A DNA stretch of 64,000 bases from Escherichia coli (lineage in GTDB: Bacteria > Pseudomonadota > Gammaproteobacteria > Enterobacterales > Enterobacteriaceae): NCBI RefSeq assembly GCF_029227855.1, contig NZ_CP074356.1; one strand, written 5' to 3'. Within the stretch, counting starts at the first letter, position 1, and each line of letters opens with the position of its first letter. Below the pieces are notes generated by a model that saw nothing but the letters and a program-made list of their open reading frames with translations, was not told the origin of the DNA and did no database searches. Shown here piece after piece: positions 2,109 through 40,105 of the stretch. Made by a program: the position numbers and the translations under genes.

Positions 2109-2686
2109 GAGTTCCCCGCGCCAGCGGGGATAAACCGATTTTGGTGGCGGGGGTGACTGGGGGAATACTGAGTTCCCCGCGCCAGCGGGGATAAACCGTC
2201 CGAGCGCGTAATAGCGCGCGCCCGGAAACAGAGTTCCCCGCGCCAGCGGGGATAAACCGCGGCACCAGGGCTGAAAGGCGGGGCCGCTAAAGAGTTCCCC
2301 GCGCCAGCGGGGATAAACCGGCCAGCGGCGCTGAGTACGACGACCTGATTAAGAGTTCCCCGCGCCAGCGGGGATAAACCGTCAATACAACAGCAATGCT
2401 GGAGCTGGAAAAAGAGTTCCCCGCGCCAGCGGGGATAAACCGGTACCGTTGAGCAATGGTGGGTAAATGGTGCTGAGTTCCCCGCGCCAGCGGGGATAAA
2501 CCGATTTAGATACGGCACACAGGAATGCGCTGGATGAGTTCCCCGCGCCAGCGGGGATAAACCGCATGGGAGTCCAGATTACAAATTCCAGAATGGGAGT
2601 TCCCCGCGCCAGCGGGGATAAACCGCGTTTAGCTCCGCAATGTTGGATATCACTGATGAGTTCCCCGCACCAGCGGGAATAAACCA
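2109..2686 (+). CRISPR. Type I-E CRISPR array (orphan, queE-ygcE intergenic), 9 spacers
   Basis: Nine 29-bp repeats GAGTTCCCCGCGCCAGCGGGGATAAACCG at a 61-bp period (2109, 2170 ... 2597) plus a degenerate terminal repeat at 2658-2686; nine unique 32-bp spacers; leader on the queE side sets orientation. Confidence 0.95.
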
Positions 2687-3140
2687 CCATATAACCCGTT
2701 ATCTCTTTCTCAAGTTTTTATATTAGCAGTACTCGTATTAAGCAACATATCCACGTAACACCTCATGTTCAAAATAGCTCTCCATATATGAGAAGTTCAC
2801 AATTATCGATACAAAAAATCAAATTTAATCAAAGTGTTATTTGTATAATCCTTAAACCGTTAAGAAATTTTAACATATTATTTTTTTAATATTAATTAAT
2901 GCCTGTTAATTTTTTCTTTAGAATAACAGTGTATTTTTTAAGCTTGTTATTCATTGATTAAGTAATAAATCTGGAAATTTGTCTTTGTTTTGAGGCTAAT
3001 GAGTGATTTTACATAATCGCCTCTATACGCTGTTGATGAATAGTTCTTATGAATAAAGATATCCAGTTCATACTTTAAGTGAAAATTGATAAAGTACGGT
3101 TCGCGTTGTCTTTTATTCTAAGGACATCGAGTGTAGTTAA

Positions 3141-3278
3141 TATTCCTTGTAAAAACAGGGATAAACCGAACTAGTTAAAGTTTTTATTATGTTCCCTGCA
3201 TCAGCGGGGATAAACCGGACTTGTTATCATTTTTTAAGTTGTCGAACTTATGTTCCCCGCGCCAGCGGGGATAACCAT
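3141..3278 (+). CRISPR. Degenerate CRISPR remnant (three decayed repeat copies, one 32-bp spacer)
   Basis: Repeat-like copies at about 3141-3168 (TATTCCTTGTAAAAACAGGGATAAACCG), 3189-3217 (ATGTTCCCTGCATCAGCGGGGATAAACCG) and 3250-3278 (ATGTTCCCCGCGCCAGCGGGGATAACCAT); the last two are separated by exactly 32 bp. Confidence 0.6.
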
Positions 3279-19729: not shown

Positions 19730-22360
19730 ATGCGTAAATATCCTTTAAGTTTACTGAAGGATAAAAATATTGTGACTTTTTTTGATTTCTGGGGAAAAAC
19801 CCGACGCGGCGAGAAAGACGGGGGCGACGACTATCACCTTCTTTGCTGGCATTCGCTGGATGTAGCCGCGATGGGCTATTTAATGGTTAAAAGCAATTGC
19901 TTCGGGCTGACTGACTATTTTCGTCAACTAGGTTTCGCTGATACGGAGCAGGCAGCACAATTTTTCGCCTGGCTATTGTGCTGGCACGATACTGGAAAAT
20001 TTGCCCGCTCTTTTCAGCAACTTTACCTGCACCCACAACTCAAGGTTCCGGAAGGCGCAAGAAAGAATTACGAAAAGATCTCTCATTCAACGCTGGGCTA
20101 CTGGCTGTGGCATCATTATTTAAGTGAATACGAAGAATTGCTTCCTTCATCTTCACTCTCTCCGCGCAAACTTAAACGGGTGATGGAGATGTGGATGCCC
20201 ATGACTACCGGGCATCATGGTCGGCCCCCTGACCGTATTGATGAACTGGATAATTTTCTGCCTGAAGACAAAGCTGCCGCACGAGATTTTCTCCTTGAAA
20301 TCAAGGTACTGTTTCCGCTCATCGAGATCCCCGCATTCTGGGATGATGACGAGGGCATTGAACTTTTAAAACAACTTTCCTGGTATATCTCTGCAACCGT
20401 CGTACTCGCAGACTGGACGGGATCGTCAACGCGGTTTTTTCCACGCGTTGCACAGGCAATGGATATTAAAGATTACTGGCAGAAGGCTTTAGTTCAGGCT
20501 CAAAACGCCTTAACCGTCTTTCCTCCAAAAGCACAAACCGCGCCTTTCACCGGAATTAATACGCTGTTTCCTTTTATTGAGCACCCGACACCGTTACAGC
20601 AAAAGGTGCTGGATCTGGATATCAGCCAGCCTGGGCCACAGTTATTTATTCTGGAGGATGTGACTGGCGCAGGTAAAACAGAAGCGGCGCTTATCCTGGC
20701 CCACAGGTTGATGGCTGCGGGGAAAGCACAGGGTTTGTTTTTTGGCCTGCCAACAATGGCAACGGCCAATGCCATGTACGATCGGCTGGTAAAAACCTGG
20801 CTTGCTTTCTATTCGCCAGAATCCCGCCCCAGCCTGGTGCTGGCACACAGTGCCCGCACATTAATGGACCGCTTTAATGAATCACTCTGGTCCGGTGATT
20901 TAGTCGGGTCAGAAGAACCGGATGAACAAGCGTTCAGTCAGGGATGTGCGGCCTGGTTTGCCGACAGTAACAAGAAGGCGTTGCTGGCTGAAATTGGCGT
21001 CGGCACGCTGGATCAGGCGATGATGGCGGTGATGCCGTTTAAACATAATAATCTGCGGCTTCTGGGACTGAGTAACAAAATCCTGCTGGCTGATGAGATC
21101 CATGCCTGTGACGCTTACATGTCGTGCATTCTTGAAGGATTGATTGAGCGGCAGGCGCGTGGAGGAAACAGCGTTATTTTGCTTTCTGCCACGTTATCTC
21201 AACAGCAGCGCGACAAACTCGTTGCTGCCTTTGCGCGTGGTGCAGAGGGCCAGCAAGAAGCTCCGTTCCTGGAAAAGGATGATTACCCCTGGCTGACGCA
21301 CGTTACGAAATCGGATGTGCATTCACACCGGGTAGCAGCGCGCAAAGACGTTGAGCGTAGCGTGAGCGTGGGTTGGCTTCATAGCGAACAAGAGTGTATT
21401 GCGCGTATCGAATCGGCGGTAAGTCAGGGGAAATGCATCGCCTGGATCCGGAATTCTGTCGATGATGCTATTAAAGTTTATCGTCAGTTACTTGCCCGCG
21501 GCGTCATTCCTGCTTCCAGCCTTTCTCTTTTTCATAGCCGCTTTGCTTTTAGCGATCGCCAGCGAATTGAAACGGAAACGCTGGCACGCTTTGGTAAAGA
21601 AGATAGCTCACAGCGTGCCGGAAAAGTCCTCATTTGTACTCAGGTCTTAGAGTCGAGCGTTGATTGCGATATGGACGAAATGATTTCCGACCTTGCCCCC
21701 ATTGATTTGCTGATCCAGCGAGCGGGGCGATTACAGCGACATATCCGCGATATTAATGGTCAGTTAAAGCGTGACGGAAAAGACGAGCGTTCCCCTCCTG
21801 AATTGCTGATTCTGGCCCCCGTCTGGGACGACGCTCCAGGTGACGAATGGTTCGGCAGTGCCATGCGTAACAGTGCATATGTCTATCCCGATCATGGACG
21901 AATCTGGCTGACGCAGCGTGTACTGCGTGAGCAAGGCGCTATTCAAATGCCACACGCAGCCCGCCTTCTTATTGAATCAGTCTACGGTGAGGACGTGGTA
22001 ATGCCGGAAGGATTTGCCCGCAGCGAGCAGGAACAAGTGGGCAAATATTACTGCGATCGCGCAATGGCTAAAAAGTTTGTGCTGAACTTTAGGCCCGGCT
22101 ATGCCGCCAATATCAACGATTACCTCCCGGAAAAACTGTCGACACGTCTGGCTGAGGAGTCTGTTTCCCTGTGGCTGGCTACCTGTATTGCCGGTGTGGT
22201 GAAGCCTTATGCCAACGGTGCTCACGCATGGGAAATGAGCGTTGTCAGAGTGCGTCGAAGCTGGTGGAAAAACATCGGGATGAGTTTTCTTTACTGGAAG
22301 GGGAAGCGTTCAGGCAGTGGTGCATTGAACAGCGGAAAGATCCGGAGATGGCAAACGTGA
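19730..22360 (+). CDS. cas3: Cas3 HD-nuclease/helicase (type I-E); 3' end apparently frameshifted, with the conserved C-terminus continuing in the +1 frame to 22428
   Basis: 876-aa ORF with HD region (LLCWHSLDVAAMGYL...), DExH helicase motifs (GAGKTEAAL, LLADEIHACD). The last ~36 codons are low-complexity and basic, while ORF 22171-22428 in another frame encodes a tail resembling the K-12 Cas3 C-terminus. An in-frame GTG at 19772 is an alternative start. Confidence 0.85.
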   Translation: MRKYPLSLLKDKNIVTFFDFWGKTRRGEKDGGDDYHLLCWHSLDVAAMGYLMVKSNCFGLTDYFRQLGFADTEQAAQFFAWLLCWHDTGKFARSFQQLYLHPQLKVPEGARKNYEKISHSTLGYWLWHHYLSEYEELLPSSSLSPRKLKRVMEMWMPMTTGHHGRPPDRIDELDNFLPEDKAAARDFLLEIKVLFPLIEIPAFWDDDEGIELLKQLSWYISATVVLADWTGSSTRFFPRVAQAMDIKDYWQKALVQAQNALTVFPPKAQTAPFTGINTLFPFIEHPTPLQQKVLDLDISQPGPQLFILEDVTGAGKTEAALILAHRLMAAGKAQGLFFGLPTMATANAMYDRLVKTWLAFYSPESRPSLVLAHSARTLMDRFNESLWSGDLVGSEEPDEQAFSQGCAAWFADSNKKALLAEIGVGTLDQAMMAVMPFKHNNLRLLGLSNKILLADEIHACDAYMSCILEGLIERQARGGNSVILLSATLSQQQRDKLVAAFARGAEGQQEAPFLEKDDYPWLTHVTKSDVHSHRVAARKDVERSVSVGWLHSEQECIARIESAVSQGKCIAWIRNSVDDAIKVYRQLLARGVIPASSLSLFHSRFAFSDRQRIETETLARFGKEDSSQRAGKVLICTQVLESSVDCDMDEMISDLAPIDLLIQRAGRLQRHIRDINGQLKRDGKDERSPPELLILAPVWDDAPGDEWFGSAMRNSAYVYPDHGRIWLTQRVLREQGAIQMPHAARLLIESVYGEDVVMPEGFARSEQEQVGKYYCDRAMAKKFVLNFRPGYAANINDYLPEKLSTRLAEESVSLWLATCIAGVVKPYANGAHAWEMSVVRVRRSWWKNIGMSFLYWKGKRSGSGALNSGKIRRWQT

Positions 22361-22525
22361 TTTTAGTTACCGATGACGAAAGTTGCGGGTATTCGGCTAT
22401 GGAAGGATTGACTGGCAAGGTTGGTTGAGATGCCTGCGACAGGGCTCTCTGAATAGTTGATACACCGAAAAGGATGGAATGATGGACAACCGACCTGGGA
22501 TGGTCTTTTTTACGAGAGGATGCGT

Positions 22526-24088
22526 ATGAACTCGTTTTCACTTCTGACAACCCCGTGGTTGCCCGTTCGTTATAAAGACGGAACGACAGGCAAACTGGCG
22601 CCTGTCGATCTGGCGGATGAAAATGTTGTCGATATTGCTGCGCCACGGGCAGATCTCCAGGGAGCGGCATGGCAGTTTTTGCTGGGGCTACTACAAACCA
22701 GCTTTGCGCCAAAAGATCATCGTCGTTGGGATGATATCTGGGAAGACGGACTGGAATCTGAAAAGCTACGGGAAGCATTGCTGTCCTTAGAACACGCTTT
22801 CCAGTTTGGGCCAGATTCCCCTTCATTTATGCAGGATTTCGAGGCGCTCACAGGAGATAAAGTTCAGGTCGCTTCGCTACTGCCTGAGATTCCCGGCGCT
22901 CAAACAACGAAGTTTAATAAAGACCACTTTATCAAGCGTGGTGTAACGGAATACCTGTGCCCACATTGTTCTGCGTTAGCTCTGTTCTCCCTACAGTTAA
23001 ATGCGCCGTCAGGTGGTAAAGGCTACCGCACCGGTTTACGCGGCGGTGGGCCGATGACCACTCTGATTGAATTACAGGAATATCAGGGCAATCAACAAAC
23101 GCCCTTGTGGCGCAAACTGTGGCTCAATGTGATGCCGCAGGACGAAGCCGACTTACCGCTACCCAAAAAATTTGACGATCTGGTTTTCCCCTGGCTTGGC
23201 CCGACGCGTACCAGCGAACTGGCCGGTGCGGTGGTAACCGATGATCAGGTTAATAAACTCCAGGCGTACTGGGGAATGCCGCGGCGTATTCGTATTGATT
23301 TTAATACCACGACAGTCGGCAACTGCGATATTTGCGGCGAGCAGAACGACGCGCTCCTGAGCCTGATGACGACCAAAAATTACGGCGCGAATTATGCCAT
23401 GTGGCAGCATCCCTTAACGCCTTACCGTGTACCCCTTAAAGAGGGCGGCGAGTTTTACTCGGTCAAACCACAACCAGGCGGTTTAATCTGGCGCGACTGG
23501 TTAGGCCTTATCGAAACGGGTAAATCAGAAAACAATACGGAACTTCCCGCGCTGGTGGTGAAACTCTTTAATGCCAGCAGTCTCAAGCAGGCAAAAGTGG
23601 GCCTATGGGGATTTGGTTATGATTTTGACAACATGAAAGCGCGCTGTTGGTACGAACACCATTTCCCGCTACTGCTCAATAAAAAAGAAGGCCAGATACC
23701 GAAGCTGCGGCTGGCTGCGCAAACGGCTTCACGGATTCTGAGTCTGTTACGGAGTGCATTGAAAGAAGCATGGTTCTCCGATCCAAAAGGTGCAAGGGGT
23801 GATTTCAGTTTTGTGGATATCGACTTCTGGAACAAAACTCAGCATCGCTTCCTGAGGTTAGTGCGCCAAATTGAAGAAGGTCAGGATGCGGATGAATTAC
23901 TCGGCAAATGGCAAAAGGAAATTTGGTTATTCGCGCGTCAGGATTTTGACGAGCGTGTATTCACTAATCCTTATGAGCCCGTTGATTTGAAACGCGTCAT
24001 GACCGCGCGCAAGAAATATTTTACAACATCGGCGGAGAAGCAAAGTGCTAAAGCCGCCAGGGAGAAAAAGCAGGAGGCTGCTGAATGA
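22526..24088 (+). CDS. casA: Cascade large subunit Cse1 (CasA)
   Basis: Track ORF 22457-24088; start placed at the ATG 6 nt after a GAGAGG RBS (MNSFSLLTTPWLPVRYKDG..., 520 aa), matching the N-terminal pattern of K-12 CasA. Confidence 0.85.
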   Translation: MNSFSLLTTPWLPVRYKDGTTGKLAPVDLADENVVDIAAPRADLQGAAWQFLLGLLQTSFAPKDHRRWDDIWEDGLESEKLREALLSLEHAFQFGPDSPSFMQDFEALTGDKVQVASLLPEIPGAQTTKFNKDHFIKRGVTEYLCPHCSALALFSLQLNAPSGGKGYRTGLRGGGPMTTLIELQEYQGNQQTPLWRKLWLNVMPQDEADLPLPKKFDDLVFPWLGPTRTSELAGAVVTDDQVNKLQAYWGMPRRIRIDFNTTTVGNCDICGEQNDALLSLMTTKNYGANYAMWQHPLTPYRVPLKEGGEFYSVKPQPGGLIWRDWLGLIETGKSENNTELPALVVKLFNASSLKQAKVGLWGFGYDFDNMKARCWYEHHFPLLLNKKEGQIPKLRLAAQTASRILSLLRSALKEAWFSDPKGARGDFSFVDIDFWNKTQHRFLRLVRQIEEGQDADELLGKWQKEIWLFARQDFDERVFTNPYEPVDLKRVMTARKKYFTTSAEKQSAKAAREKKQEAAE

Positions 24089-24621
24089 GTATTGTAAAAG
24101 AGGAGCACAAAGCCACGCTGCGTAAATGGCACGAAGAGTTGCAGGAAAAACGCGGCAATCGTGCCAGTCTGCGGCGTAGCACAACGGTTAATGATGTTTG
24201 TCTGTCAGAAGGGTTTCGTTCTCTGCTGATGCAGACCCACACGTTGTGGAAAATTGAATCACAGGAGTGGCGTTTTACCGCACTGGCGCTGGTTGCCGCC
24301 GTTGCCGCCAATGTAAAAGCCATTGATGAACGGCAGCCTTTTGCCGCGCAGTTGGCGGCGGTAATGTCTGAGGGGCGTTTTACTCGCCTGTCGGCAGTCA
24401 AAACGCCGGATGAATTACTGCGCCAGTTACGTCGCGCGGTCAAATTATTAAATGGTTCCGTCAATCTTATCTCTTTGGCAGACGATATTTTCCGCTGGTG
24501 CCAGGAGAGCGACGATCTGCTCAATCATCACCGCCGCCAGCAGCGGCCAACAGAATTTATCCGTATCCGCTGGGCGCTGGAATATTACCAGGCTGGCGAC
24601 GCCGATAACGAACAAAATTAA
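24085..24621 (+). CDS. casB: Cascade small subunit Cse2 (CasB)
   Basis: 178-aa ORF MSIVKEEHKATLRKWHEELQEKRGNRASLRR...; overlaps the casA stop; position in the cascade operon. Confidence 0.85.
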   Translation: MSIVKEEHKATLRKWHEELQEKRGNRASLRRSTTVNDVCLSEGFRSLLMQTHTLWKIESQEWRFTALALVAAVAANVKAIDERQPFAAQLAAVMSEGRFTRLSAVKTPDELLRQLRRAVKLLNGSVNLISLADDIFRWCQESDDLLNHHRRQQRPTEFIRIRWALEYYQAGDADNEQN

Positions 24622-24635
24622 TAAAGGACTATCTC

Positions 24636-25691
24636 ATGACGACATTTATTCAGCTTCATTTGTTAACCGCTTACCCTGCTGCCAACCTTAACCGTGATGA
24701 CACCGGTGCGCCAAAAACTGTGGTACTGGGTGGAGCAACGCGTCTGCGCGTTTCCTCACAAAGTCTGAAACGTGCGTGGCGCACTTCTGCACTTTTTGAA
24801 CAGGCACTGGCGGGCCATATTGGTATTCGCAGTGGGCGTATTGCGCGTGAGGCGGCAACTATCCTGATTGAGAAAGGCATCGAAGAGAAAAAAGCCATCG
24901 AATGGGCGGCAAAAATTGCGGATTATCTTGGGAAAGCTAAAAACGACAAAAAACCAAAAGATCCGCTCACTAACGCCGAAACTGAACAGCTAGTCCATAT
25001 CAGCCCGGCAGAATTTGACGCCGTAAAAGCGCTGGCCCATCAACTGGCCGAAGAAAAGCGCGCGCCAAAAGAGGAAGATCTCGCTTTGTTACGTAAAGAT
25101 CGCATGGCGGTAGATATCGCTATGTTTGGTCGTATGCTGGCGAATAAACCCGAATTTAATGTTGAAGCCGCCTGCCAGGTCGCGCATGCATTTGGTGTCA
25201 GTGAAACGATTGTCGAAGATGATTTTTTCACCGCCGTTGATGATTTGCGCCAGGCTTCTGAAGATGCCGGTGCCGGGCATCTTGGTGAAACCGGATTCGG
25301 TTCTGCGCTGTTCTACACCTATATCTGCATCGATAAAGATCTGCTGGTCGAAAACCTCGGCGGTGACGAAGCGTTAGCTAATCAGACCTTGCGCGCCTTT
25401 ACGGAAGCCGCACTTAAAGTCTCCCCAACCGGCAAACAGAACAGCTTTGCCAGCCGTGCCTACGCCTCCTGGGCGCTGGCAGAAAAAGGCACTGAACAAC
25501 CACGCTCTCTGGCGGCGGCTTTCTATGAACCCATTAATGGCACCCGGCAGTTAGATGTGGCGGTGCAGCGTATTACAACGCTTCGCGAAAATATGAATAC
25601 GGTCTATGAACAGAAGACCGAATGCGCAAGCTTTGACGTGATGAACAAACAGGGAAGCATGAAGGACGTGCTGGACTTTATCTGCGCGTAA
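24636..25691 (+). CDS. casC: Cascade backbone subunit Cas7e (CasC)
   Basis: 351-aa ORF MTTFIQLHLLTAYPAANLNRDDTGAPKTVVLGGATRLRVSSQSLKRAWR... Confidence 0.9.
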   Translation: MTTFIQLHLLTAYPAANLNRDDTGAPKTVVLGGATRLRVSSQSLKRAWRTSALFEQALAGHIGIRSGRIAREAATILIEKGIEEKKAIEWAAKIADYLGKAKNDKKPKDPLTNAETEQLVHISPAEFDAVKALAHQLAEEKRAPKEEDLALLRKDRMAVDIAMFGRMLANKPEFNVEAACQVAHAFGVSETIVEDDFFTAVDDLRQASEDAGAGHLGETGFGSALFYTYICIDKDLLVENLGGDEALANQTLRAFTEAALKVSPTGKQNSFASRAYASWALAEKGTEQPRSLAAAFYEPINGTRQLDVAVQRITTLRENMNTVYEQKTECASFDVMNKQGSMKDVLDFICA

Positions 25692-25701
25692 GGGGCGGCT
25701 A

Positions 25702-26448
25702 ATGAGCCAATATTTGATTTTTCAGCTTCATGGGCCAATGGCATCCTGGGGCGTCGATGCCCCCGGCGAAGTGCGTCATACCCATGAACTGCCTTCGCGC
25801 TCAGCATTGCTGGGGCTGCTGGCTGCCGGGGTAGGGATTCGGCGTGATGATACCGAACGATTAAACGTGTTTAACCGCCACTATTCACTGGTGGTTTGCG
25901 CCAGCCGTAACCCGCGCTGGGCACGGGATTATCACACAATCCAGATGCCAAAAGAGGTGCGTAAAGCGCGTTATTTCAGCCGTCGCGAAGAGTTGAGCGA
26001 CCCTGATCTTCTGAGCGCGATTATCTCCCGGCGCGACTACTACACCGACGCCTGGTGGATGGTGGCGGTGGCAACAACAGCCGATGCGCCTTACAGCCTC
26101 GAACAGTTGCAGGGCGGTTTACGCCATCCAGTTTTTCCTCTTTATCTGGGGCGAAAAAGTCATCCGCTGGCGTTACCACTTGCGCCGTTACTGCTCGAAG
26201 GCAACGCGTCTGATGTCTTACGTAACGCATACCAACAGTATCAGGATAGTTTCCGCGAACTGAAAGTCTCACTCCCGAAACTTCAGGATGAATGCTGGTG
26301 GGAAGGGGAACACGACGGCCTGGTCGCGAGCAAAATATTACGTCGCCGGGATGTTCCTTTAAATCGTCAGCAGTGGCTGTTTGGGGAACGCACCATCAAT
26401 CAGGGGCCGTGGCTCAGCAAGGAGGAACCATGTACCTCTCAAGAATAA
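25702..26448 (+). CDS. casD: Cascade subunit Cas5e (CasD)
   Basis: 248-aa ORF MSQYLIFQLHGPMASWGVDAPGEVRHT...; same N-terminal pattern as K-12 CasD (MRSYLILRLAGPMQAWG). Confidence 0.9.
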   Translation: MSQYLIFQLHGPMASWGVDAPGEVRHTHELPSRSALLGLLAAGVGIRRDDTERLNVFNRHYSLVVCASRNPRWARDYHTIQMPKEVRKARYFSRREELSDPDLLSAIISRRDYYTDAWWMVAVATTADAPYSLEQLQGGLRHPVFPLYLGRKSHPLALPLAPLLLEGNASDVLRNAYQQYQDSFRELKVSLPKLQDECWWEGEHDGLVASKILRRRDVPLNRQQWLFGERTINQGPWLSKEEPCTSQE

Positions 26449-27076
26449 CCTTACATACCGGCCAGCTTTCGCCTGCGCAGTTGCTGCATCTGGTGGATCG
26501 CGGTGAATATGTAATGCATCAGTGGCTGTGGGATCTTTTTCCTGGCGGCAAAGAAAGGCAATTTCTTTATCGTCGGGAAGAACTCCTGGGGGCGTTTCGC
26601 TTTTTTGTCCTGTCGCAGGAACGCCCGGCGGAAAATGATATTTTCACCATCGAATGCCGACCATTTGCGCCAGAGTTGCGTACCGGACAATCCCTTTGTT
26701 TCAACCTGCGGGCGAATCCAACAATTTGTAAAGCGGGCAAACGCCACGACTTGCTGATGGAGGCGAAACGGCAGGTGAGGGGGCAGGTGGAAGGAAGTGA
26801 TGTCTGGTTGCATCAACAACAGGCGGCGCTGGACTGGCTGGCAGCGCAGGGGGAAAGAAGCGGTTTTACACTACTGGATACCTCGGTCGATGCCTACCGA
26901 CAACAGCAACTGCGGCGGGAAAACTCCCGGCAACTGATCCAGTTCAGTAGCGTGGATTATACGGGGATGCTTACGGTCACCGATCCTGGGTTATTTCTGC
27001 AACGTCTGAGCCAGGGGTATGGCAAAAGCCGCGCGTTCGGCTGTGGTCTGATGCTGATCAAACCCGGAGCAGAGGC

Positions 27077-27080
<4 letters not shown>
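26430..27080 (+). CDS. casE: crRNA endoribonuclease Cas6e (CasE)
   Basis: Track ORF 26292-27080; start at ATG after AGGAGG RBS (MYLSRITLHTGQLSPAQLLHLVDRGEYVMHQWLWDLFPG..., 216 aa); C-terminal GCGLM-type motif. Confidence 0.85.
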
Positions 27081-28290
<1,210 letters not shown>

Positions 28291-28386
28291 GTTATCTGTT
28301 CTTTAAAAATAAGGAAATGTTTTAATTTAGTTGGTAGATTGTTGATGCGGAATAAATTTGTTTAAAAACAGTTATGTATGCTTAGT
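28291..28386 (+). promoter_or_regulatory. CRISPR leader of array 2 (AT-rich, GTTGGTAGATTGT box)
   Basis: 96-bp AT-rich spacer between the cas2 stop and the first repeat; box TTTAGTTGGTAGATTGTTGATG shared with the array 1 leader. Confidence 0.5.
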
Positions 28387-29025
28387 GTGTTCCCCGCGCC
28401 AGCGGGGATAAATCGAGATCACCGTGTTAAATAACCGATTGAACGCCGTGTTCCCCGCGCCAGCGGGGATAAATCGGCCAGGCCAATACAGTTGGCGAAG
28501 AAGCGAAGGTGTTCCCCGCGCCAGCGGGGATAAATCGACACCGGGCTGGATAAAAAAACTATCGGGAAAGTGTTCCCCGCGCCAGCGGGGATAAATCGCC
28601 GTTTGATAGCTGTTCACGCTGGCTGATGCCGTGTTCCCCGCGCCAGCGGGGATAAACCGCGCAGTTCGCTACCGAGCGTGGTTTGCTGGTCGTGTTCCCC
28701 GCGCCAGCGGGGATAAACCGGCGCACAGCGACGCGAAATCAACGAAAATTTAGTGTTCCCCGCGCCAGCGGGGATAAACCGATTGCCAGATACTGTGTAT
28801 ATCCACCGACTAAGTGTTCCCCGCGCCAGCGGGGATAAACCGCAGGGAAACCGTTCGTACTTATCGACCTCAACGTGTTCCCCGCGCCAGCGGGGATAAA
28901 CCGAAGGGGACGGCTACGGGACGCCGCCTATTGATGTGTTCCCCGCGTCAGCGGGGATAAACCGGACGCACTGGATGCGATGATGGACATCACTTGGAGT
29001 TCCCCGCCCCTGCGGTAGAACTCCC
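28387..29025 (+). CRISPR. Type I-E CRISPR array (cas-associated), 10 spacers
   Basis: Ten 29-bp repeats at a 61-bp period (28387 ... 28936) plus a degenerate terminal repeat at 28997-29025; ten unique 32-bp spacers. Repeats 1-4 end AAATCG, repeats 5-10 end AAACCG. Confidence 0.95.
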
Positions 29026-29045: not shown

Positions 29046-30083
29046 TCAAGACGCCTTCGCCAGCTCCTTCACCAGCGGTAGCATTATCCGCATAACATCA
29101 CGGCAGCGACGTTCTATTCTTCCAGGAAGTGCCTTATCAATATGTTGTTGATTATCCAGTCTTACGTCATGCCAGCTATTTCCCGCAGGGAATGCAGCTG
29201 TTTTTGCGCGTTGCTGATAACCATCCTTATTCCCAAGATTCCAATTTGTTGCTTCTACCGAAAGTACGGCAATACCGGCTTTGTCGAAAACTTCGGCATC
29301 ATTACAACAGCCAGTACCCTTCGGATAATTTTTATTCAAACCCGGATTGGTCGTTGCGGCAATTCCATGACTACGCGCAATTGCCAGCGCCCTGTCGCGC
29401 GTTAATTTCCTTACTGCTTCAGGGGTTTTTACACCGCTGTTGAAATACAATTTATCGCCAACAATTAAGTTATCGAGATTAATCACCAGCAGCGTATTTT
29501 TCTTTTCGGTGTCACTCATCCGCTTGAGTAAATTCTCAGCGCCTAATTTCCCTTCCTCTTCGCCGCTGGTCGCCACAAATCGAATACCATACTCGGTAGG
29601 CGTATTTTTCAGGCGTTCTGCCAGTTCCAGCATGACACCTAAACCTGCAGCGTTATCATCCATTCCTTGTAACGTCAGTCCGCCGAGATTGGCATCGGCG
29701 TCAGCATCGCTCAGCGGGGCGTAAGTATCCAGATGCGCCATAATGATGATCTGCTGCGGCGCTTTGCCTTCATGAGCGGCAATCACCGTACTTCCCGTCA
29801 CGTTATGCCAGCTCTTGCGATTATCGCGGGCGGTATAAATATACCGACTATTAAATGTCCGAATATCACTGCGATAACCCATTTGCTGAAACTGTTGGCG
29901 AATATAATCGGCAGATAACATTTCTGCAGGAGTTCCGGTCATGCGTCCCGGAAAGAAAGTAGCAATATGTCGTGCCTGAGTATTAGCAAAATCGCCAGGT
30001 TTAGCTGACGAGGCGTGTACGGGGAGAATAAAGCATACGCCGAGCGCCAGGGCAGCGGTACGGTGGCGCAATGCGGAAAACAT
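29046..30083 (-). CDS. iap: Alkaline phosphatase isozyme conversion aminopeptidase
   Basis: 345-aa ORF MFSALRHRTAALALGVCFILPVHASSAKPGDF... with signal peptide; flanks the CRISPR array as in K-12. Confidence 0.9.
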   Translation of the reverse strand: MFSALRHRTAALALGVCFILPVHASSAKPGDFANTQARHIATFFPGRMTGTPAEMLSADYIRQQFQQMGYRSDIRTFNSRYIYTARDNRKSWHNVTGSTVIAAHEGKAPQQIIIMAHLDTYAPLSDADADANLGGLTLQGMDDNAAGLGVMLELAERLKNTPTEYGIRFVATSGEEEGKLGAENLLKRMSDTEKKNTLLVINLDNLIVGDKLYFNSGVKTPEAVRKLTRDRALAIARSHGIAATTNPGLNKNYPKGTGCCNDAEVFDKAGIAVLSVEATNWNLGNKDGYQQRAKTAAFPAGNSWHDVRLDNQQHIDKALPGRIERRCRDVMRIMLPLVKELAKAS

Positions 30084-39112: not shown

Positions 39113-40105
39113 ATGAGTCAGAATACGCTGAAAGTTCATGATTTAAATGAAGATGCGGAATTTGATGAGAACGGAGTTGAGGTTTTTGACGAAAAGGCCT
39201 TAGTAGAAGAGGAACCCAGTGATAACGATTTGGCCGAAGAGGAACTGTTATCGCAGGGAGCCACACAGCGTGTGCTGGACGCGACTCAGCTTTACCTTGG
39301 TGAGATTGGTTATTCACCACTGTTAACGGCCGAAGAAGAAGTTTATTTTGCGCGTCGCGCACTGCGTGGAGATGTTGCCTCCCGCCGCCGGATGATCGAG
39401 AGTAACTTGCGTCTGGTGGTAAAAATTGCCCGCCGTTATGGCAATCGTGGTCTGGCGTTGCTGGACCTGATCGAAGAGGGCAACCTGGGGCTGATCCGCG
39501 CGGTAGAGAAGTTTGACCCGGAACGTGGTTTCCGCTTCTCAACATACGCAACCTGGTGGATTCGCCAGACGATCGAACGGGCGATTATGAACCAAACCCG
39601 TACTATTCGTTTGCCTATTCACATCGTAAAGGAGCTGAACGTTTACCTGCGAACCGCACGCGAGTTGTCCCATAAACTGGACCACGAACCAAGTGCGGAA
39701 GAGATCGCAGAGCAACTGGATAAGCCAGTTGATGACGTCAGCCGTATGCTTCGTCTTAACGAGCGCATTACCTCGGTAGACACCCCGCTGGGTGGTGATT
39801 CCGAAAAAGCGTTGCTGGACATCCTGGCCGATGAAAAAGAGAACGGTCCGGAAGATACCACGCAAGATGACGATATGAAGCAGAGCATCGTCAAATGGCT
39901 GTTCGAGCTGAACGCCAAACAGCGTGAAGTACTGGCACGTCGATTCGGTTTGCTGGGGTACGAAGCGGCAACACTGGAAGATGTAGGTCGTGAAATTGGC
40001 CTCACCCGTGAACGTGTTCGCCAGATTCAGGTTGAAGGCCTGCGCCGTTTGCGCGAAATCCTGCAAACGCAGGGGCTGAATATCGAAGCGCTGTTCCGCG
40101 AGTAA
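39113..40105 (+). CDS. rpoS: RNA polymerase sigma factor RpoS (sigma-38), apparently intact
   Basis: Track ORF 39077-40105; start at [40 protein letters not shown]... (330 aa); sigma-70 family regions 2-4; no internal stop. Confidence 0.95.

What the first reader, a model, noticed from the sequence alone, without database searches (positions are those of the whole stretch)
28387..28598. Leader-proximal repeats of the cas-linked array carry a variant (AAATCG end), recording recent spacer acquisition
Repeats 1-4 end ...GGGGATAAATCG, repeats 5-10 end ...GGGGATAAACCG, and repeat 10 has a separate C-to-T change in the stem (GCGTCAGCGGGG). New repeats are copied from the leader-proximal repeat during adaptation, so a mutation there propagates into later units. 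The pattern implies the first three spacers were added after the T variant arose.
Basis: partly seen in the sequence, partly recalled or inferred. Interest (0 to 1): 0.45.

Follow-up and report, generated by a model that had tools for sequence, protein, structure and literature searches.

The report
Repeat variant marks newest CRISPR spacers
This is the ordinary E. coli type I-E CRISPR array next to its cas genes, in which a one-base change in the repeat nearest the leader was copied into each later repeat, as lab experiments predict; the change is shared with about 150 other E. coli genomes.

Summary
Repeats 1-4 (28387-28598) end AAATCG, repeats 5-10 end AAACCG, and repeat 10 has a C-to-T at position 13. 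That change lies in the hairpin loop, not the stem.

The locus is the E. coli CRISPR1 array between cas2e and iap.

Comparisons support it here:
- A near-identical strain, JNEC-KY178, has one more leader-end spacer, and its repeat also carries the variant.
- About 150 of 5,426 complete E. coli genomes carry the variant in the first repeat. In all 12 related arrays inspected, the variant repeats form one run starting at the leader.
- Spacers S8-S10 are shared widely. S1-S7 occur only in this strain and JNEC-KY178.

The variant is therefore a lineage marker, not a private change. "Recent" is relative and not dated.

Spacers S1, S2, S4 and S5 match one lambdoid prophage, all on the same strand.

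The variant changes position -3 of the crRNA 5' handle. Westra 2013 reports that a C is needed there for interference, so the newer spacers may work poorly. This was not tested.

Ordinary, well-explained biology; low to moderate interest.

The parts
19730..22428 (+). cas3. Relative to JNEC-KY178 the window has a 1-bp deletion in an A6 run at 22268. The reading frame therefore ends at 22360 (876 aa instead of 899).
   Evidence: ORFs; PGAP annotation of the near-identical JNEC-KY178 locus; base differences
22526..27080 (+). Cascade genes: casA/cse1 (22526-24088), casB/cse2 (24085-24621), cas7e (24636-25691), cas5e (25702-26448), cas6e (26430-27080).
   Evidence: ORFs. The sequence is identical to the PGAP-annotated JNEC-KY178 genes; cas3 holds the only two differences in the operon.
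27077..28290 (+). Adaptation genes cas1e (27077-28000) and cas2e (27997-28290), both intact.
   Evidence: There are 0 differences from JNEC-KY178 in the 1600 nt upstream of R1.
28291..28386 (+). AT-rich leader between the cas2e stop and repeat 1.
   Evidence: The last 30 nt plus R1 match at 95% identity or more in about 2,600 E. coli genomes.
28387..28598 (+). Repeats R1-R4 with T at repeat position 27 (…ATAAATCG), and spacers S1-S3 between them. This is the finding itself.
28599..28630 (+). Spacer S4, the first spacer whose crRNA 5' handle comes from a T27 repeat. It matches the STEC384 prophage replication protein P gene at 31/32, with PAM ATG.
28631..28935 (+). Canonical repeats R5-R9 with spacers S5-S9. 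S5 matches the STEC384 prophage baseplate hub gene (31/32, PAM ATG). S6 matches an integrase pseudogene next to yejO (31/32). S8 and S9 are shared with many genomes.
28936..28964 (+). Repeat R10 with T at position 13 (loop GCCA to GTCA). This is an old polymorphism that accompanies spacer S10 in every array inspected that carries S10 itself.
28965..29025 (+). Oldest spacer S10 (28965-28996) and the degenerate terminal repeat (28997-29025).
   Evidence: S10 is present in more than 500 genomes.
29046..30083 (-). iap, the gene that flanks the trailer end of E. coli CRISPR1.
2109..2686 (+). Second (cas-distal) array with GAG-type repeats, none carrying T27. Two degenerate repeats lie further on at 3189-3278.

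Best explanation
This is the cas-adjacent CRISPR array (CRISPR1, between cas2e and iap) of an E. coli type I-E system.

Proposed history:
- A C-to-T transition at repeat position 27 arose in the repeat that was then next to the leader. That repeat is today's R4. The change happened during or after integration of spacer S4.
- Cas1-Cas2 integrate each new spacer at the leader-repeat junction and copy the first repeat. Every later unit (S3, S2, S1, and S0 in strain JNEC-KY178) therefore inherited the T.
- Older repeats kept C. The variant run thus marks the part of the array added after the mutation.

Why the variant could spread: position 27 lies outside the two inverted-repeat motifs that Cas1-Cas2 need, so adaptation was not blocked.

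Origin of the variant (inferred):
- It is not private to this strain. It most likely arose once, in the common ancestor of this lineage and a sister clade of ~150 genomes.
- The sister-clade arrays read leader-[T27]X1..X7-[C]S8-S9-S10.
- That clade would later have lost S4-S7 by a repeat-to-repeat deletion.

What is shown and what is inferred:
- Shown: the pattern, its leader polarity, its propagation in a near-identical strain, and its population distribution.
- Inferred: a single origin, the timing, and any effect on function.

The confidence given (0.85) is for the core claim that a mutation in the leader-adjacent repeat was propagated by adaptation. For the single-origin sub-claim it is about 0.6.
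For: Identity of the locus:
- 29-nt repeats with 32-nt spacers matching the published consensus GWGTTCCCCGCGCCAGCGGGGATAAACCG (consensus from PMC3338789).
- A complete cas3-casABCDE-cas1-cas2 operon directly upstream and iap downstream.

Mechanism:
- The first repeat is the template for the new repeat (PMC3384332).
- Only the last base of the repeat comes from the PAM, so position 27 lies within the copied part (PMC3338789).
- Only the inverted repeats are essential for adaptation. [quoted passage not shown]

Propagation seen in nature:
- JNEC-KY178 has the same array plus one leader-end spacer with a T27 repeat.
- Its flanks differ from the window at 4 positions in ~49 kb.

Polarity:
- S8-S10 are shared by ~150 genomes, S9+S10 by ~130 more, and S10 alone by ~190 more. 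S1-S7 occur only in JNEC-KY178.

Population distribution:
- 152 of 5,426 genomes carry T27.
- About 150-163 carry it in the leader-adjacent repeat.
- All 12 related arrays read have an unbroken T27 run from the leader: L001-L004, L009, L016-L021, L028.

Sister relationship:
- The window differs from the 7/2 clade by 1 SNP in the 1600 nt upstream of R1 and 1 SNP in the 1200 nt downstream.
- Other lineages differ by 2-85 upstream and 13-35 downstream.

Deletion model:
- Deletion derivatives in the sister clade ([T27]X1-[C]S8; [T27]X1-[T27]X3-[C]S8) show that the fused repeat takes the 3' end of the downstream repeat. The single-origin scenario requires exactly this.
- The window itself lacks one internal CRISPR2 spacer that JNEC-KY178 has, so deletions do occur on this timescale.
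- Kupczok 2015 found that E. coli array evolution is explained by vertical descent plus deletion (PMC4524480).
Against: - Single origin is not proven. No genome or metagenome contig retains S4-S7 together with X-type spacers.
- The same C27-to-T change has arisen independently elsewhere: E. coli AH01 (last repeat only), an Erwinia MAG (repeat 33 of 38), Pluralibacter gergoviae (oldest repeat), and two other metagenome arrays. A second, independent hit in this lineage therefore cannot be excluded.
- S5 (canonical repeat) and S4, S2, S1 (T27 repeats) all match one prophage. This suggests a short acquisition burst, which makes a lineage split in the middle of it somewhat awkward.
- The window-versus-JNEC difference at the leader end could be a deletion in the window rather than a gain in JNEC.
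- No acquisition event was observed directly.
Confidence: 0.85

Rival explanations
1. The T27 change arose twice, independently: once in the leader-adjacent repeat of this lineage (after S5-S7 were acquired) and once in the 7/2 clade (straight after S8). In both cases it was then propagated by adaptation. The mechanism is the same as in the best explanation; only the history differs.
For: In the window, three canonical-repeat units (S5-S7) separate the T27 run from S8. In the 7/2 clade the T27 run abuts the S8 repeat. No intermediate array was found. The same transition occurs independently in at least five other arrays.
Against: T27 is rare. Apart from this lineage and its sister clade, it was seen in only one other E. 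coli array (AH01), and it occurs in 2 of 100,044 species representatives. Two hits, both in the leader-adjacent repeat and both in sister lineages whose array flanks differ by 1 SNP per ~1.5 kb, are less likely than one hit plus one deletion of a kind seen repeatedly in this clade.
Confidence: 0.3
2. The T27 block (leader-R1..R4 with S1-S4) was imported as a unit by homologous recombination from another strain's array, rather than built up in this lineage.
For: The ~50 kb around the locus is a mosaic relative to strain 7/2, with 0 to 67 differences per kb outside the arrays. Exchange of CRISPR-Cas modules among E. coli strains has been proposed (Almendros 2014, as cited in PMC4524480).
Against: No donor exists: S1-S7 are found only in JNEC-KY178 among 5,426 genomes. 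Kupczok 2015 found no need for recombination to explain E. coli arrays. Even if this were true, the run would have been built in the donor by the same templating mechanism.
Confidence: 0.07
3. The T spread among neighbouring repeats by intra-array gene conversion (concerted evolution), with no new spacers being added.
For: Repeats are identical 29-mers 61 nt apart, so they are a possible substrate. The same loop variant (T13) appears at both ends of the array of strain 746 with canonical repeats in between, which simple templating does not explain.
Against: The run starts exactly at the leader in all 12 related arrays and has a sharp boundary. The spacers inside it are lineage-specific, whereas those outside are shared. 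The JNEC-KY178 extra unit sits at the leader end. Laboratory data show templating from repeat 1.
Confidence: 0.03

Closest known systems
E. coli type I-E CRISPR1 array (CRISPR 2.1 / iap-cas array) with its leader
   Same: Same repeat consensus, 61-nt unit, hairpin, position between cas2e and iap, degenerate terminal repeat and AWG-type PAMs. Hundreds of public genomes share the trailer spacers.
   Different: Nothing categorical. The cas/leader set is the non-K-12 variant: the last 30 nt of leader plus R1 match K-12 strains at only about 82%.
First-repeat templating shown with GAG/GTG labelled repeats (Yosef, Goren and Qimron 2012, PMC3384332)
   Same: A single-base label in the leader-adjacent repeat is inherited by every new repeat and is not taken from repeat 2 or from the other array. 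The window's second array stays C27 and GAG.
   Different: That work was an engineered two-repeat array in the laboratory. Here the label is a natural mutation at position 27 rather than position 2, and it was followed over 3-7 successive natural acquisitions.
Repeat 5'-handle mutants at positions -1 to -3 (Westra et al. 2013, PMC3764190)
   Same: T27 is a -3 substitution in the 8-nt handle (AUAAACCG to AUAAAUCG). That study reports that phage resistance requires C at -3, while crRNA processing and complex formation are unaffected.
   Different: Only C-3G is described explicitly in the text that could be read. Whether C-3U was among the 21 mutants could not be verified. The study used K-12 Cascade, not this cas variant.
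Trailer-end repeat degeneration
   Same: R10 (T13) and the degenerate terminal repeat fit the usual picture of older repeats accumulating changes (general knowledge, not checked in a paper here).
   Different: The T27 run is at the leader end, the opposite pole. Orientation tools that assume mutations cluster at the trailer end could be misled.

Membership tests
E. coli type I-E CRISPR array (CRISPR1, iap-cas) | 29-nt repeat matching GWGTTCCCCGCGCCAGCGGGGATAAACCG, with 32-nt spacers (61-nt period) | tested here: met
   consensus taken from PMC3338789
E. coli type I-E CRISPR array (CRISPR1, iap-cas) | Adjacent complete type I-E cas operon ending in cas1e-cas2e | tested here: met
   ORFs. The operon is identical to the PGAP-annotated JNEC-KY178 operon except for 1 SNP and 1 indel in cas3. 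The cas3 indel may truncate Cas3.
E. coli type I-E CRISPR array (CRISPR1, iap-cas) | AT-rich leader on the cas2 side, degenerate terminal repeat and iap on the other side | tested here: met
E. coli type I-E CRISPR array (CRISPR1, iap-cas) | Repeat transcript forms the Cas6e hairpin, leaving an 8-nt 5' handle | tested here: met
   Predicted 7-bp stem plus tetraloop at -15.1 kcal/mol for the canonical, T27 and T13 repeats. Handle definition from PMC4288178. Actual processing was not tested.
E. coli type I-E CRISPR array (CRISPR1, iap-cas) | Protospacers flanked by an AWG PAM | tested here: inconclusive
   AAG or ATG for S2, S4, S5 and CRISPR2 spacer 2. CCG for S1 and ATA for S6, in the imperfect (31/32) matches available.
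Variant propagated by first-repeat templating | Variant repeats form one contiguous run that starts at the leader | tested here: met
   The window plus 12 related arrays. The collection-wide count with T27 in repeat 1 is about equal to the count with T27 anywhere.
Variant propagated by first-repeat templating | Spacers inside the run are younger (lineage-specific) than those outside it | tested here: met
   S8-S10 are widely shared; S1-S7 occur only in JNEC-KY178.
Variant propagated by first-repeat templating | A closely related strain with an additional leader-end unit carries the variant in the new repeat | tested here: met
   JNEC-KY178. The direction of change (gain there or loss here) is not resolved.
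Variant propagated by first-repeat templating | The variant lies in the copied 28 nt, not in the PAM-derived last base, and outside the motifs needed by Cas1-Cas2 | tested here: met
   Position 27 of 29. PMC3338789 and PMC5039180.
Variant propagated by first-repeat templating | Direct observation of a new spacer being added with the variant repeat | not testable with these tools
   Requires an adaptation assay.

The most novel reading that the evidence does not exclude
The T27 change puts U at position -3 of the crRNA 5' handle. This base is contacted specifically by Cas5/Cas7 and is reported to have to be C for interference. The change lies in a part of the repeat that Cas1-Cas2 do not need. 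The template repeat may therefore carry a self-propagating handicap: adaptation continues, but every spacer added afterwards (S1-S4 here, X1-X7 in ~150 genomes of the sister clade) makes a weak or inert crRNA. The mutation could even have been selected as an escape from self-targeting by S4, which matches a temperate phage, and then been fixed into all later memory.
Probability: 0.2. Interest if true: 0.55.

Novelty: already known. Interest (0 to 1): 0.27.

Why it matters
This is a clean natural example of a mechanism shown in the laboratory.

- **Lineage marker.** The repeat SNP marks where in the array it arose and separates ~150 genomes and this strain from other E. coli.
- **Caution for orientation tools.** Tools that orient arrays by assuming repeat mutations sit at the trailer end could be misled by a leader-end run (general knowledge, not tested here).
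- **Possible functional effect.** If the -3U handle really impairs interference, roughly 3% of complete E. coli genomes would be storing their newest spacers in a non-functional form. That would bear on the long-standing question of why E. coli type I-E immunity looks inactive in nature.

Tried and rejected
- **Phage collection.** Spacers S0-S10 gave no match at E<=1 against 50,697 phage records.
- **Plasmid collection.** The hits were only array copies in mislabelled chromosomes, plus a weak 29/33 match of S8 to a T4SS coupling-protein gene.
- **Metagenome contigs.** An exact search for S4 gave 0 hits, so no intermediate array was found.
- **Species representatives.** The T27 repeat was searched in 100,044 species representatives to see whether it is the normal repeat of another species that could have donated it. 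There were only two single occurrences, so that idea was rejected.
- **Rfam.** No hit on the array at gathering threshold.
- **Promoter scan.** No consensus sigma-70 promoter in the leader. This is uninformative, because the scan is crude.
- **Literature.** A search for the exact variant sequence on either strand gave 0 papers.
- **Westra 2013.** Neither the text nor the supplements reveal whether C-3U itself was among the tested handle mutants.
- **Assembly artefact.** Considered and rejected, because the variant is present in independent assemblies.
- **Four independent identical mutations.** Considered and rejected as implausible.

Full report
**What is at the coordinates**

The region 28387-29025 is a CRISPR array of ten 29-nt repeats at a 61-nt period, followed by an 11th degenerate repeat.
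- Repeats R1-R4 read GTGTTCCCCGCGCCAGCGGGGATAAATCG.
- R5-R9 end ATAAACCG.
- R10 reads GCGTCAGC where the others read GCGCCAGC.

- The R10 change is not in the stem. Folding gives a 7-bp stem (positions 5-11 with 16-22) and a GCCA tetraloop, and position 13 is the second loop base. The predicted energy is unchanged for both variants.

The repeat core occurs 22 times in the window against 0 expected. A second array lies at 2109-2686. Its repeats start GAG, whereas all ten cas-linked repeats start GTG.

**Identity of the locus**

- Upstream are cas3, casA-E, cas1e and cas2e (19730-28290). A 96-nt AT-rich leader follows. Downstream on the minus strand is iap.
- The best match in 5,426 complete E. 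coli genomes is strain JNEC-KY178.
- Outside the arrays, the window differs from JNEC-KY178 over ~49 kb by three SNPs, one 1-bp indel and one IS1 insertion.

This is therefore the standard E. coli type I-E CRISPR1 (iap-cas) array.

**Testing the interpretation**

- Yosef et al. 2012 labelled repeats with the natural GAG/GTG polymorphism. [quoted passage not shown]
- Swarts et al. 2012 showed that only the last base of the repeat comes from the PAM (PMC3338789). Position 27 therefore lies inside the copied part.
- Goren et al. 2016 showed that only the two inverted repeats are essential for adaptation. [quoted passage not shown] Both natural variants seen here (T27 and T13) fall in those dispensable segments.

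1. *A near-identical strain.* JNEC-KY178 has exactly the same array plus one extra spacer at the leader end (TCCGTATGGG...). The extra repeat also carries T27, giving five variant repeats.
2. *Spacer sharing.* A query of concatenated spacers gave these results:
   - S1-S7 occur only in JNEC-KY178.
   - S8+S9+S10 occur in about 150 genomes.
   - S9+S10, with three other spacers between them, occur in about 130 more.
   - S10 alone occurs in about 190 more.
   - The iap end is therefore old and the cas end is young.
3. *Distribution of the variant.* The variant repeat was searched across the whole collection.
   - 152 genomes carry it.
   - A query of the last 30 nt of leader plus R1 is 100% identical in about 150-163 genomes.
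   - The variant is therefore almost always in the first repeat.
4. *Related arrays read in full.* Twelve were inspected: L001-L004, L009, L016-L021 and metagenome contig L028.
   - All show one unbroken T27 run starting at the leader.
   - The sister clade (strains 7/2, DA33137, YDC107 and others) reads leader-[T27]X1...X7-[C]S8-[C]S9-[T13]S10.
   - Its deletion derivatives keep X1 first.

**History of the variant**

T27 is not private to this strain.
- The array flanks of the window differ from the 7/2 clade by 1 SNP in 1600 nt upstream and 1 SNP in 1200 nt downstream.
- Other lineages differ by 2-85 upstream and 13-35 downstream. The two are therefore sister lineages at this locus.

In the window, three canonical units (S5-S7) sit between the T27 run and S8. 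In the sister clade the run abuts the S8 repeat. Two histories fit.
- **(A) One origin.** The mutation arose in the repeat upstream of S4. The sister lineage then added X7 and lost S4-S7 by a repeat-to-repeat deletion.
- **(B) Two independent hits.**

History A needs the fused repeat to take its 3' end from the downstream repeat.
- That is what is seen in the natural deletion derivatives [T27]X1-[C]S8 and [T27]X1-[T27]X3-[C]S8.
- Deletions are frequent: 5 of 12 clade arrays have one, and the window itself lacks an internal CRISPR2 spacer that JNEC-KY178 has.
- Kupczok et al. 2015 found that vertical descent plus deletion is sufficient to explain E. coli arrays.

History B is supported by recurrence of the same transition elsewhere, as isolated hits:
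- E. coli AH01, last repeat only, on a divergent cas background.
- An Erwinia MAG, repeat 33 of 38.
- Pluralibacter gergoviae, the oldest repeat of a 44-repeat metagenomic array. In the type strain this is the only remaining repeat and sits next to the leader.
- Two further metagenome arrays.

T27 is nevertheless rare: it occurs in 2 of 100,044 species representatives. I favour A at about 2:1. No intermediate array was found.

"Recent" is relative.
- The mutation probably predates the split from a globally sampled clade.
- The single-unit difference from JNEC-KY178 could be a gain there or a loss here.

**Origin of the spacers**

- No spacer matches the phage collection. The plasmid collection gives only a weak S8 hit.
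- Among E. coli chromosomes, one lambdoid prophage in strain STEC384 (NZ_CP091029, about 2.638-2.682 Mb) carries protospacers for four CRISPR1 spacers:
  - S1: 31/32, ydaT-family gene, flank CCG.
  - S2: 26/32, PAM AAG.
  - S4: 31/32, replication protein P gene, PAM ATG.
  - S5: 31/32, baseplate hub gene, PAM ATG.
- All four lie on the same strand.
- CRISPR2 spacer 2 also matches this prophage (32/32, PAM ATG), on the other strand.
- 200 shuffled spacers gave no hit with 6 or fewer mismatches.
- Same-strand targeting of one element is the signature of primed adaptation. With four spacers it is only suggestive (p = 0.125).
- The T27 mutation falls between S5 and S4, that is, within a series of acquisitions against one phage family.
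- S6 matches an integrase pseudogene next to yejO (31/32, flank ATA).

**Possible functional consequence (inference)**

- The last 8 nt of the repeat become the crRNA 5' handle, AUAAACCG (PMC4288178). T27 makes it AUAAAUCG, a change at position -3.
- That paper cites base-specific contacts of Cas5 and Cas7.6 with handle positions -7, -5, -3 and -2.
- Westra et al. [quoted passage not shown] C-3G is documented explicitly (PMC3764190).
- I could not verify that C-3U was tested. The Cascade used there was the K-12 variant.

The spacers downstream of T27 repeats may therefore be poor at interference while adaptation continues. This is untested.

**Verdict**

The biology is already known. The added value is a population-level natural demonstration, the protospacer source, and a testable hypothesis about the -3U handle.

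Noticed in passing
window 22268 (cas3, 19730-22428): The window has A5 where JNEC-KY178 has A6. The cas3 frame therefore shifts at about codon 847 and ends at 22360 (876 aa instead of 899). Strain 7/2's cas3 is also annotated at full length (2700 nt). This could be a real inactivating mutation of the Cas3 C-terminal domain or a homopolymer sequencing error.
   Followed up: partly
window 2109-2686 (second array) compared with L014 2055-2693: JNEC-KY178 has an extra internal spacer (CGCCAGTCTGAGG...) between spacers 8 and 9 of the cas-distal array. The window lineage has therefore lost one old unit by deletion on the same short timescale as the leader-end difference in CRISPR1.
   Followed up: yes
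L022 (E. coli STEC384, NZ_CP091029, 2638000-2681900): One lambdoid prophage is matched by spacers from at least six different E. coli array lineages: the window (5 spacers), 7/2 (2), M00057/ST69 (2), 746 (2, both perfect) and AH01 (3). Most have ATG rather than AAG as the flanking PAM (10 of 14 distinct protospacers). This prophage family looks like a recurrent natural target of E. coli type I-E.
   Followed up: partly
L010 (plasmid pR11-698-2, NZ_CP107157, locus 3002-3152): A 96-kb plasmid carries three T27 repeats with spacers X5 and X6 of the 7/2-clade chromosomal array. They lie immediately downstream of ISEcp1-blaCTX-M-15-wbuC. It looks as if an ISEcp1 transposition unit picked up a piece of the chromosomal CRISPR array and moved it to a plasmid.
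   Followed up: no
L007 (E. coli strain 746, repeats at 1862-2500): The loop variant T13 occupies repeats 1-7 at the leader end and also the oldest repeat before S10. Three canonical repeats lie in between. Simple templating from one origin does not explain this; it needs a second hit, gene conversion or recombination.
   Followed up: no
L023 and L025 (Pluralibacter gergoviae type strain and a related metagenome contig): In a 44-repeat array, T27 is present only in the oldest repeat. In the type strain the array has collapsed to that single repeat, which is now next to the leader. This shows a second route by which an old-repeat variant can become the template for future repeats.
   Followed up: partly
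window 3189-3278: Two degenerate repeats (ATGTTCCCTGCATCAGCGGGGATAAACCG and ATGTTCCCCGCGCCAGCGGGGATAACCAT) with one spacer lie about 500 nt beyond the second array. They are conserved in JNEC-KY178 and in strain 7/2, and look like a relic mini-array.
   Followed up: partly
window 39113-39121 compared with L014 39206-39903: JNEC-KY178 has an IS1A insertion between nlpD and rpoS that the window lacks. Otherwise the sequences from 28378 to 49055 differ by only two SNPs.
   Followed up: yes
window 28253: A G (T in every other lineage examined) near the 3' end of cas2e is the only difference from the 7/2 clade in the 1600 nt upstream of the array. It is shared with JNEC-KY178 and accounts for their distinct Cas2e protein accession.
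   Followed up: partly
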